From positions 32,609 through 96,608 of the forward strand of contig JBBRSB010000016.1 of the NCBI GenBank assembly GCA_038245785.1: a stretch of DNA of 64,000 bases. The letters are read 5' to 3'. This document shows, piece by piece, positions 37,295 through 39,289 of the stretch. The translations under genes were made by a program, and so were the position numbers. The notes under the pieces were generated by a model. That model saw only the letters and a program-made list of their open reading frames with translations, was not told the DNA's origin and ran no database searches. Origin of the DNA: Gloeobacterales cyanobacterium (GTDB lineage Bacteria; Cyanobacteriota; Cyanobacteriia; Gloeobacterales; PMM-0068). Each line of letters begins with the position of its first letter. The first letter of the stretch is position 1.

Positions 37295-37666
37295 GGTTTC
37301 ATTCCTTCAGAAGTTTGGGCAGAAGCTGTGTGATTAACCTGAGGGCGCAAGCACCCTTTTTTTAGTGCGTCCTGCGCTTTGACTCTTTCAGTTTCTGAGA
37401 TCTGACCAAGGAAACATATTGTCCAAAACGTAAGTTCTTCTTGTTGAACCCGTAGGTTCTTCTACGCTCGAACGAATGTGCGCCTGCGTACTAAAGCCGA
37501 TGGATTTACTTTATAAGTACTCGTCAGAAGCAATGTCCGCTCTGGGAGGGACTGTGGAGAAGAGGGCACTCGCTCACGTTTAGCAAGATTACTCTTCTAA
37601 TCCCTTCTAATGAAGACTGTTTAAGACTGTTCCGGCCAGGTTTGCTTATCAAGCAGGTTGCCGTTC

Positions 37667-37954
37667 TTAGACAGTCACAGATAGTTTTAAGCCTAATTCT
37701 CTTGAGAGTGCGGTGAGCACTAGCAGTCCTGGAGCTTCTCCCTGAGCAAGCAACTGGTAGCAGTTTTGCCAATCAAAATCAGGTTTGGATGAAGCGACCA
37801 TCAGACTTCTACGGGCTTCTGCTACATTCTTTAATGCCAGCAGAATATGCTTAGAGTCGCCATCCTCTAGGACAGCATCTAGATAAGCAGCCGCCTCTGC
37901 CGGATCTTTCAAAGATTCGATCAGATAGGAGTGGTAGCTCTTGTGGGTTGGCAT
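37667..37954 (-). CDS. Addiction module antidote (HigA-like antitoxin)
   Basis: LIESLKDP.EAAAYL..VLE.GD...LLALK.VAEA...LGLKLSV. Confidence 0.85.
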   Translation of the reverse strand: MPTHKSYHSYLIESLKDPAEAAAYLDAVLEDGDSKHILLALKNVAEARRSLMVASSKPDFDWQNCYQLLAQGEAPGLLVLTALSRELGLKLSVTV

Positions 37955-38050
37955 TTTGTCTTTCCTGAAAATCCGTCCAGTACTGCTTTGCTCTGAGAAT
38001 ATCTCGATCTTGGGTGTTTTTATCCCCGCCGCAGAGCAGAAAGATGATGG
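37851..38050 (-). pseudogene. 3' fragment of a RelE-like addiction module killer gene
   Basis: TIIFLLCGGDKNTQDRDI.RAK.YW; overlaps the antidote start. Confidence 0.85.
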
Positions 38051-38209
38051 TTAGACTGCCTAAAGTTATCAAAACTTTTTAGCAACGTATTGTTAAAACC
38101 GAAAGATTTTTCAATGACAGTATATTTTCAACCGTTATAGTTTAGTAAAGCAATCTAACAATAGCCCTGAGCCAGACGGGAGGGCGCTGACATATTACTC
38201 TAAGCTAGA

Positions 38210-38503
38210 ATGGAAAATACCAAAGCCTCTCAGAAAAGCGATATGCCACTCAATGAACTTCTACCCGCCGTTGATCGACTATCTCATCAGGACAAGCTTC
38301 GACTGATCCACTTTCTCCTTCTCGCAGTTGCTAAAGAAGAAGGATGCATTCTAGAGCCTTCTGAAGAAAGTGATTCGGAAAATATACTGCTAGCTCAGAT
38401 GGCGTTGACAGAAGCAGTAGTATGGTCTCCTCAAACAGATCATGTGGCAGTTCAAGCATTAGCAGATCTTTTGGTAGCTGCAAGGGAATCTGCTAATGCT
38501 TGA
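38210..38503 (+). CDS. Small hypothetical protein (candidate antitoxin partner)
   Basis: ELLP.V..LS..DKLRLI.FL; 8-nt overlap with the protease gene. Confidence 0.75.
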   Translation: MENTKASQKSDMPLNELLPAVDRLSHQDKLRLIHFLLLAVAKEEGCILEPSEESDSENILLAQMALTEAVVWSPQTDHVAVQALADLLVAARESANA

Positions 38504-38915
38504 TGGTCAGCGCTACTCGTTCACTGAGCGAACTGATGACCTTGGCCGATCAAGTATCATGCCATTTTTGCCATTGACCCTTACTAACGAAAGCCTTTCT
38601 GTACAAGTGATGGCATTGTTGGATACAGGTGCAAGTGTCAATGTTCTGCCTTACGAGATTGGCATAGAACTAGGGGCGGTCTGGGAAGATCAGACCCTTT
38701 CCATTCCATTGAGCGGGAACTTAGCTCATAGTGAGGCGCGGGGATTAATTCTGTCTGGTACAGTTACTCCGTTTTCGCCTGTTTTGCTTGTATTTGCCTG
38801 GACTCAATCGAAAGATGCGCCTGTAATTCTCGGACATATGAACTTTTTTGCAGAGTTTAACGTGTGTTTTTATCGGCATGAGTTAGCTTTTGAAGTTCGA
38901 CCAAGAGAACAATAA
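38496..38915 (+). CDS. Retropepsin-like aspartyl protease
   Basis: ALLDTGASVNVLP; PVILG..NFF..F.VCF. Confidence 0.85.
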   Translation: MLDGQRYSFTERTDDLGRSSIMPFLPLTLTNESLSVQVMALLDTGASVNVLPYEIGIELGAVWEDQTLSIPLSGNLAHSEARGLILSGTVTPFSPVLLVFAWTQSKDAPVILGHMNFFAEFNVCFYRHELAFEVRPREQ

Positions 38916-38936
38916 AGCGGTGTTGCACAGCCAGCA

Positions 38937-39019
38937 GTCTAACCAGCACATTGCAGCGGACGGAATCAAGATCCCAGTGCGTTACGAAAAATGCTAGCCG
39001 CTGAACGCAGACGTTGGAC
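38937..39019 (+). other. attC recombination site (83 bp)
   Basis: R'' GTCTAAC (38937), L'' TT[G]CAGCGG, L' CCGCTGAA, R' GTTGGAC (39013); one extrahelical base in the L box. Confidence 0.8.
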
Positions 39020-39238
39020 AAAGTAGATTCGATAGCCCGCTCCATAGTCAATTCTGAGTTCCATGACCCGTTCGCCAACAGGCTTAAAGTCTCCCAGATT
39101 GCCTAGCCTAACTCGATCAATTCGTTTCTTAATTCTAGCTCTCGCTTGTCTGTCTCGCAGAGCATCTAACCAACGTTTAAAGGGGCAGTCATCATCTTCC
39201 ACTAGGTATAAGACCACTTCCCGTGGCTGTGCCTCCAT
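39014..39238 (-). pseudogene. 5' fragment of a RelE-like addiction module killer gene
   Basis: PF..WL..LRD..ARARI..RI.R..LGNLGD.KPVG..V.ELRIDYG.GYRIYF; homology ends at the attC R' box. Confidence 0.88.
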
Positions 39239-39289
39239 AAGCCCCTAATCCCTTCTAAATAGGTATTTCTGATTTTGTCACGAGCCTTG

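What the first reader, a model, noticed from the sequence alone, without database searches (positions are those of the whole stretch)
38048..39019. Solitary attC cassette integrated into a toxin gene with no integron nearby
Seen: a RelE-like killer gene is split into ...GYRIYFVQ (to 39014) and TIIFLLCGGDK... (from 38050). The insert ends in a canonical-looking attC whose G/TT crossover point coincides with the end of toxin homology. It begins with G/TTAGACTGC, and 38048-38059 is the exact 12-bp reverse complement of 38934-38945 spanning R'', as expected for a circularised cassette. Established: IntI can insert cassettes at secondary GTT-containing sites. Inference: natural off-platform cassette integration in a cyanobacterium. 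Caveat: simply rejoining the two GTT points leaves the toxin out of frame (about 10 nt short of the homologues I recall), so an extra deletion or a second event is required.
Basis: partly seen in the sequence, partly recalled or inferred. Interest (0 to 1): 0.78.

Follow-up and report, generated by a model that had tools for sequence, protein, structure and literature searches.

The report
Stray integron cassette splits toxin gene
A 963-base integron-type gene cassette, carrying a predicted promoter and a candidate anti-phage gene pair, sits inside and breaks a bacterial toxin-antitoxin toxin gene, likely pasted there by the integrase encoded elsewhere in the same genome; this is a clear natural example of a known process.

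Summary
A covariance model trained only on outside attC sites finds one significant site in the window, 38937-39019, bottom strand (38.6 bits). The insert (38051-39013) starts at G/TT, ends at the attC G/TT, and splits a RelE/ParE-family toxin. No intI or attI lies in the window, but the genome has an intact intI and about 30 other attC sites. The insert is not a simple cassette. It is a gene-less, promoter-like cassette (copies sit at an attI and in an array elsewhere), joined at its R'' to a half-attC leader and an intact two-gene module (PADLOC candidate PDC-M52; retropepsin fold). All 53 and all 24 intact homologues in two overlapping sets show that 10 nt of toxin are lost. Both junctions recur in a related population from another study, so this is no assembly artefact. 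Best reading: attC x attG insertion (a SALIN) plus a 10-nt loss. How the 10 nt were lost is unresolved. SALINs and gene-splitting single cassettes are published, and this scan noted similar insertions on other DNA (mostly phages). New member of a known kind.

The parts
37667..37954 (-). Antitoxin (HI1420-like addiction module antidote), intact
   Evidence: PF21716 E 6e-8; TIGR02684 E 3e-7, below its cut-off
37941..38050 (-). 3' half of RelE/ParE-family toxin; its stop codon is lost in this genome by a change at 37943 that is silent in the overlapping antitoxin
   Evidence: TIGR02683 68-94; stop present in intact homologue L082; runs X2 and X4 carry the other letter at 37943
38050..38051 (+). 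Left crossover point G/TT (toxin | cassette start)
   Evidence: Toxin homology ends and the repeat family begins here; 10-nt complement of R'' plus flank
38051..38159 (+). Element E: gene-less, AT-rich cassette body ending in an R''-like heptamer (38153-38159); 21 bp shorter than the C38 copy
   Evidence: Copies on C38 (after an attC), C47 (after an attI-like site), C14 and C120
38114..38141 (+). Predicted sigma-70 promoter (10 of 12, 16-nt spacer) facing the cargo; activity untested
   Evidence: 2 sites found, 2.3 expected by chance, so the scan alone is no evidence; the hexamers recur in E copies
38160..38242 (+). Half-attC-like stretch and leader of the two-gene module; no right arm
   Evidence: 54-67% identical over 24 nt to the same place in 4 other cyanobacteria (46% in a fifth), 38-42% to E's own attC arms
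38243..38503 (+). orf1, 86 aa, PADLOC PDC-M52A (an in-frame ATG also lies at 38210)
   Evidence: PDLC04691 E 2.7e-43, 1-86/86
38496..38915 (+). orf2, 139 aa, PADLOC PDC-M52B; retropepsin-like aspartic protease fold with invariant DTG
   Evidence: PDLC04692 E 2.2e-79; alignment; model pLDDT 92.7; best Foldseek match 5c9f, TM 0.61
38937..39019 (+). attC (top strand +): R'' 38937-38943, L'' from 38950, extrahelical bases 38953 and 38960, L' 39000-39006, R' 39013-39019
39013..39014 (+). Right crossover point G/TT (attC | toxin 5' half)
39014..39238 (-). 5' half of the toxin (75 codons); the frame runs on through attC to a stop at 38966
   Evidence: 84% DNA identity to intact L082

Best explanation
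A 963-bp fused integron cassette sits between two G/TT points inside a toxin-antitoxin toxin gene, and was likely inserted as a circle by the genome's own integron integrase, acting in trans on a non-integron GTT site (attC x attG), with 10 bp of toxin lost at or soon after insertion. Shown: the attC, the two G/TT junctions, the split gene, the 10-nt gap, an intact intI elsewhere, and no attI or intI in the window. Inferred, in order: (1) the toxin-antitoxin pair entered this locus; (2) gene-less cassette E became joined at its R'' to the PDC-M52 module, giving one unit with one complete attC; (3) IntI excised the unit and recombined the folded attC bottom strand with a GTT in the toxin, most likely the left site; (4) a short deletion beside the hairpin removed 10 bp; (5) the insertion was tolerated because it hit the toxin and spared the antitoxin. 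The cargo would be expressed from promoters inside the insert, against the direction of the host operon.
For: Covariance-model hit on the correct strand, full length, all pairs standard. In the computed circle form the recombinogenic fold has probability 0.25, within the 0.03-0.8 range of 20 control attCs; in the present linear form it is 0.017, below all 20. The cassette-start rule (GTT... complementary to R'' plus flank) gives 10 nt here and at least 10 nt for 12 of the 31 other sites tested in the genome (no shuffle control). Intact intI at C2:301-1266, 480 bits against a cut-off of 265, six catalytic residues present. 33 attC matches in the genome, 30 at E<=0.003, with 150 of 757 candidates scored. 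No attI-family match in the window (best E 4.7 and 1.2), whereas 7 of 18 attC clusters have one 0.4-1.6 kb upstream. The gene pair has a co-oriented attC 18-50 nt behind orf2 in 11 of 30 homologous loci. Contigs of run X2 span the left junction (419 bp, 24 differences, no gap) and of X2 and X3 the right junction (224 bp, 8 differences, no gap); these runs belong to a study other than the likely source. 7 of 24 closer intact toxins have the target triplet at the left site, 0 of 24 at the right site. attC x attG insertion, gene disruption and imprecise excision were shown in E. coli (10.1101/2022.09.11.507474; parts 1 and 3-6 of 6 read).
Against: No empty allele of this strain was found, so the target is inferred from homologues (closest 80% amino-acid identity). 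A plain attC x attG event is conservative and does not explain the 10-nt loss. The free MFE fold of the linear bottom strand is not the canonical hairpin and is no more stable than shuffles (z +1.08). The right-hand R' fits R'' at 6 of 7 positions, which is better than a random deletion end would give and favours the rival two-site route. Whether this intI is expressed, or was the enzyme responsible, is unknown; the contig upstream of it ends in what looks like a transposase gene end (family recalled, not searched).
Confidence: 0.6

Rival explanations
1. Integrase-only, two-site route. The toxin allele had two GTT sites 10 bp apart. A short array went in at the right site, then an attC x attG excision at the left site removed a leading cassette together with the 10 bp. 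Same class of event (SALIN), different history.
For: Both junctions fall exactly on G/TT; the right R' matches GTTRRRY and R'' at 6 of 7; positions 6-9 right of it match 3 of 4 of the attG CRGM motif of Loot et al. (read from the sequence; the motif is for IntI1). A contig of another organism in run X2 carries an intact toxin with both GTT sites 10 nt apart (loose end at 38052). Excision outside the insertion point is published.
Against: 0 of 24 closer toxins have the right-hand triplet, and none of the 53 rows of the wider set has both triplets (11 right, 8 left). It needs a lost cassette for which there is no trace.
Confidence: 0.25
2. Remnant of a local integron or CALIN: the toxin-antitoxin pair and the insert were parts of an array that was rearranged and lost its platform.
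For: The toxin family lies next to this gene pair in G019 and near an orf2 homologue in G017; integrase-less arrays are common in this genome; the whole module is absent from this locus in both same-genus genomes.
Against: No attC or attI flanks the toxin-antitoxin pair. The two halves are collinear with one homologue and the break is inside a codon run, not between cassettes.
Confidence: 0.07
3. Integrase-independent capture: a linear piece of array DNA entered by illegitimate recombination at microhomologies, or the insert is a MITE-like element with 12-bp inverted ends.
For: The 10-nt replacement looks like a double-junction event; a 12-bp inverted repeat exists.
Against: The right inverted copy is not terminal (68 bp of attC follow); there is no target duplication and no transposase-sized ORF in the insert; both ends coincide with integrase crossover points.
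Confidence: 0.07
4. Assembly chimera.
For: In run X1 the assembly graph breaks inside the repeated element E.
Against: X1 contigs overlap across the break with no differences, and both junctions recur in contigs from another study with 4-6% divergence.
Confidence: 0.01

Closest known systems
SALIN / attC x attG insertion (Loot et al., bioRxiv 10.1101/2022.09.11.507474; parts 1 and 3-6 of 6 read, supplements closed)
   Same: Single complete attC behind coding sequence, no integrase or attI nearby, crossover at a G/TT inside a dispensable gene. The paper counts 3400 SALINs in 2469 of 21,105 genomes.
   Different: Natural chromosomal case in a cyanobacterium; 10 bp of target lost; the unit is a fusion that brings its own predicted promoter, where their test cassettes needed a host promoter.
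Single dfrA14 cassette splitting strA; aadB cassette in RSF1010/pIE723 (PMC11213556, passages read; aadB via citations)
   Same: A natural lone cassette with its attC interrupting a gene outside any integron.
   Different: Those are plasmid resistance cassettes; aadB is described as precisely inserted. Here the target is a chromosomal toxin gene, the cargo is a defence candidate, and bases are lost.
Gene-less promoter cassettes of Vibrionaceae superintegrons (10.1101/2023.11.21.568050; abstract and outline only)
   Same: A short ORF-less cassette with a sense-strand promoter-like sequence ahead of other cassettes.
   Different: E is unrelated by origin: its core motif recurs in ordinary intergenic regions of this genome. 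Here and on C38 it has lost its own attC and acts as the 5' leader of a larger cassette. Activity is untested.
Fused cassettes with a truncated first attC, e.g. blaGES-1/aacA4 (PMC4670013, passages read)
   Same: The first attC is reduced to its R'' region and the two units would move as one.
   Different: The stretch behind R'' resembles the downstream module's leader in other genomes, not E's own attC, so the joint looks like an exchange at R'' rather than a simple deletion.
PADLOC phage defence candidate PDC-M52 (PDC class: 10.1101/2024.01.29.577857, passages read; 'M52' does not occur in its main text and its supplements are closed)
   Same: Both genes match the A and B models over their full length.
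   Different: The function of the candidate is not shown in anything I could read; a full-text search for 'PDC-M52' found 0 papers.

Membership tests
attC site | R'' RYYYAAC and R' GTTRRRY cores, 57-141 bp overall (length range recalled) | tested here: met
   83 bp, both cores fit
attC site | L''/L' stem with extrahelical bases and bottom-strand bias | tested here: met
   10 of 10 R and L pairs possible on the bottom strand, with one G-T wobble; same 6/6-spacer subtype as an attC beside the Kovacikia intI
attC site | Covariance-model match | tested here: met
   38.6 bits, rough E 5e-8 with my own 12-sequence model; IntegronFinder's model was not available
attC site | Recombined by IntI as a folded bottom strand | not testable with these tools
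   Predicted fold probability 0.017 linear, 0.25 circle
SALIN | One attC, no other complete attC nearby | tested here: met
   Only significant hit in the window and the only C16 hit in the genome search; a half site without a right arm lies at 38153-38190
SALIN | No integron integrase or attI nearby | tested here: met
   No TIGR02249 match on C16; no attI-family match in the window with two profiles built from this genome
attG insertion | GWT core at the target crossover | tested here: inconclusive
   Both junctions read G/TT, but the empty allele is not in hand; 7 of 24 closer homologues have the triplet at the left site, 0 of 24 at the right
attG insertion | Conservative single-crossover insertion with no target loss | tested here: not met
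   10 nt missing; a second event is required
attG insertion | An integrase is available in the cell | tested here: met
   Full-length intI on C2 with catalytic residues; expression not tested
Gene-less promoter cassette | ORF-less unit that starts at G/TT after attI or attC and has its own attC | tested here: met
   After an attI-like site on C47 and an attC on C38; attC-like body behind the C120 and C14 copies
Gene-less promoter cassette | Promoter activity | not testable with these tools
   Consensus match only; no RNA holder listed
IS / MITE | Terminal inverted repeats at both ends, target duplication, transposase | tested here: not met
   Right repeat is internal, target is deleted not duplicated, no transposase ORF
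PDC-M52 | Adjacent A and B genes matching the PADLOC models | tested here: met
PDC-M52 | Anti-phage activity | not testable with these tools
   Candidate status only

The most novel reading that the evidence does not exclude
Cyanobacterial cassettes are also rebuilt at the R'' end. A gene-less cassette carrying a host-type promoter is spliced, exactly at the AAC of R'', onto other modules; the PDC-M52 module has a conserved half-attC that has been joined to different upstream cassettes in several genera and carries different attC bodies behind its own R''. The products are self-expressing cassettes that one trans-acting IntI can drop anywhere in the chromosome. This would be a visible intermediate of cassette genesis (by top-strand IntI recombination or group IIC-attC intron exchange) coupled to off-platform spread.
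Probability: 0.2. Interest if true: 0.65.

Novelty: new member of a known kind. Interest (0 to 1): 0.35.

Why it matters
It gives a natural chromosomal case, with both junctions readable, of a route so far shown mainly by E. coli assays and by counts of lone attC sites. It also offers a testable cyanobacterial set in one genome: an intact IntI, attI-like sites, an attC and a genomic target. It suggests that dead or dispensable toxin genes act as safe landing places and that defence candidates can arrive with their own promoter. The process itself is published, so the surprise is modest. The part that could matter more is the exchange at R'', which bears on how cassettes are made, and it rests on few loci.

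Tried and rejected
Unconstrained folding of the attC with flanks gave no canonical hairpin and no excess stability; constrained folding was used instead. My hand-made attC scanner ranked the site 17.5 against a best control score of 17.25, too weak alone, so a covariance model was built. A first alignment of 18 attCs from this genome was not used; the GES attC was dropped from the training set because it misaligned. A closer view of the X2-X4 differences at the junctions was not obtained. No RNA holder listed. PDB sequence searches for orf2 and for the intact toxin found nothing; the protein Atlas gave no answer. dN/dS against distant homologues (0.04-0.25 for all genes) cannot date the toxin's loss. 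A group II intron like the one at the R'' of L143 was not found in this genome by DNA search, although 8 group II maturase domains are present. The 14-bp direct repeat around the module is not a target duplication that I could confirm. Rejected: MITE or IS; assembly chimera; orphan attI as the landing site.

Full report
Observation. The minus strand holds a toxin-first toxin-antitoxin pair. The toxin is in two pieces, 39014-39238 and 37941-38050, matching consecutive parts of TIGR02683 (8-64 and 68-94); the antitoxin 37667-37954 is whole. Between them lie 963 bp, 38051-39013. The 12-bp inverted match is exact and unique in the genome. Its inner 10 bases pair the start of the insert with R'' and its flank, as in a circularised cassette; the outer two involve toxin bases and add nothing.

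The attC. I took 12 attCs from outside this genome (9 behind class 1 integron cassettes, 3 beside a Kovacikia integron integrase), gave them the known R/L/extrahelical structure and built a covariance model. With filters off it finds 38937-39019 on the bottom strand at 38.6 bits, rough E 5e-8; the other 3 listed matches in 64 kb have E 1.5 or worse. The free fold of the linear site is not the canonical hairpin. The probability of the recombinogenic fold is 0.017 now and 0.25 in the computed circle, against 0.03-0.8 for 20 control sites. The site therefore looks competent for entry and poorer for exit. The same scale has no experimental calibration here.

The genome. An intact integron integrase lies at C2:301-1266 (480 bits, cut-off 265; R, K, H, R, H, Y present; 70.6% identical to a Kovacikia IntI), with a broken copy on C8. 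The model gives 33 attC matches, 30 at E<=0.003, from 150 of 757 candidates scored. They form 18 clusters, 7 of which have an attI-like site 0.4-1.6 kb upstream. I looked for these sites because an earlier scan note on this genome reported dispersed attI copies; my two profiles confirm many such sites (25 and 4 matches, overlapping) and find none in the window. So the landing place is coding sequence, not an orphan attI. For 12 of the 31 other attCs tested, an upstream GTT start matches R'' plus flank over 10 or more bases, as here (no shuffle control; one row at a contig start was invalid and counted as a miss).

The insert is composite. 38051-38159 is a repeat, element E. Its copy on C47 follows an attI-like site, and its copy on C38 follows an attC, both at the same G/TT. 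Copies on C120 and C14 are followed by an attC-like body, inverted on C14. E has no ORF of 40 codons and carries a sigma-70-like pair that recurs among copies; the scan itself finds no more sites than chance. Behind E's R'' comes a stretch that resembles the leader of the two-gene module in other cyanobacteria more than E's own attC. Then follow orf1 and orf2, which match PADLOC candidate PDC-M52A and B over their full length. orf2 has an invariant DTG and a predicted retropepsin fold. In 11 of 30 homologous loci an attC lies 18-50 nt behind orf2, so the pair is a habitual cassette.

The missing bases. All 53 distinct intact toxin segments in one set and all 24 in a closer cyanobacterial set (some loci shared; only segments fitting the motif pattern were counted) have 12 residues between GYR.YF and GGDK. 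The window keeps 26 of these 36 nt, so 10 are lost. The triplet needed for a crossover is at the left position in 7 of 24 closer homologues and at the right in none; in the wider set the counts are 8 and 11 of 53, with none having both, though one contig end in run X2 shows both. This favours insertion at the left site followed by a short deletion next to the hairpin. The good fit of the right R' (6 of 7) keeps the two-site integrase route alive. Precise excision would not restore the toxin frame; the frame after the crossover runs into the antitoxin.

History. Both same-genus genomes have the flanking genes side by side without the toxin-antitoxin pair. Contigs from another study span the left junction (X2; 24 differences in 419 bp) and the right junction (X2 and X3; 8 in 224 bp), with no gaps, so the insertion and the 10-nt loss are shared by a related population and are not an artefact. 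These are separate short contigs and may not come from one cell. That population keeps the toxin's stop codon, which this genome has lost, a sign of decay after the break. A third population (X4) has deleted the toxin region and kept the antitoxin.

Comparison. Loot et al. (10.1101/2022.09.11.507474; parts 1 and 3-6 of 6 read) define SALINs, count 3400, and show IntI-driven insertion at GWT sites, gene disruption and imprecise excision. A lone dfrA14 cassette splitting strA is a natural precedent (PMC11213556, passages). Fused cassettes that move as one unit (PMC4670013, passages), gene-less promoter cassettes (10.1101/2023.11.21.568050, abstract) and integrons in cyanobacteria (PMC4889954, passages) are also described. 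Off-target IntI activity at secondary sites is covered in PMC10127599 (passages); top-strand selectivity in PMC5027507 (abstract only). The locus meets the SALIN definition. It fails one feature of a clean attG insertion, conservation of the target, and so needs a second event. The scan's index lists 26 earlier findings on similar words, the 8 shown mostly in phages; I did not check them. Eight paper searches showed no title or abstract on a cyanobacterial case at this level; the library lacks most subscription papers and bioRxiv supplements, so this is not a claim of absence.

The bolder reading. In 7 of 30 upstream regions (window included) an R''-like heptamer followed by a half-attC motif lies 69-89 nt before orf1; shuffles give 0.8 on average, 4 at most. 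The pattern was drawn after seeing the data, and one hit (L157) looks like chance. What lies left of the heptamer differs: E here, and the ends of unrelated genes elsewhere. The attC body behind orf2 also varies, and in L143 a sequence that I read from recall as a group II intron end sits at that R''. Group IIC-attC introns insert at R'' and were proposed to build cassettes (PMC7923331, passages). On C38, E again leads a longer cassette whose final R'' matches E's start. Against this: GCAG(C/T)CTAAC is a common R'' context in these genomes, so some matches are cheap, and the set is small. I give it 0.2.

Verdict. Real, integrase-type, explained by a known route; new member of a known kind; interest 0.35.

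Noticed in passing
window 37597-37610 and 39245-39258: An exact 14-bp direct repeat brackets the toxin-antitoxin module; these are its only two copies in the genome. It is absent from the empty locus of the two same-genus genomes, and the left copy lies in a segment replaced in runs X2 and X4.
   Followed up: partly
G000 C2:241934, C15:46945, C87:263 and 559, C27:47379, C17:20245, 80572 and 82023, C4:18369, C1:8368: The core of element E (two ACCGAAA-like boxes about 21 bp apart ahead of a promoter-like pair) recurs in many places that look like ordinary intergenic DNA; it may be the site of an unidentified regulator. The window copy has lost one box.
   Followed up: partly
G000 C14:71251-71469: An E copy lies between tandem paralogous genes with its attC-like body inverted relative to the C38 and C120 copies.
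   Followed up: partly
G000 C38:21300-28800: The C38 array is bracketed by pieces duplicated at 91-96% identity, including the 3' end of an ABC permease gene.
   Followed up: no
L143 (G253:C41), behind orf2: A likely group II intron 3' end (recognised from recall) is inserted in reverse at the R'' of this cassette.
   Followed up: partly
L010 (G019:C9): The same gene pair, with an attC cut short by a repeat, is directly followed by a toxin of the same TIGR02683-like family that has an internal stop.
   Followed up: no
G000 C2:1-300: The intact intI starts 300 bp from a contig end that reads like the end of an IS110-type transposase (family recalled), so its own array may lie across the break.
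   Followed up: no
L013 (G001:C98): A same-genus genome holds only the 3' end of orf2 and its R'', with no attC body, at another locus.
   Followed up: no
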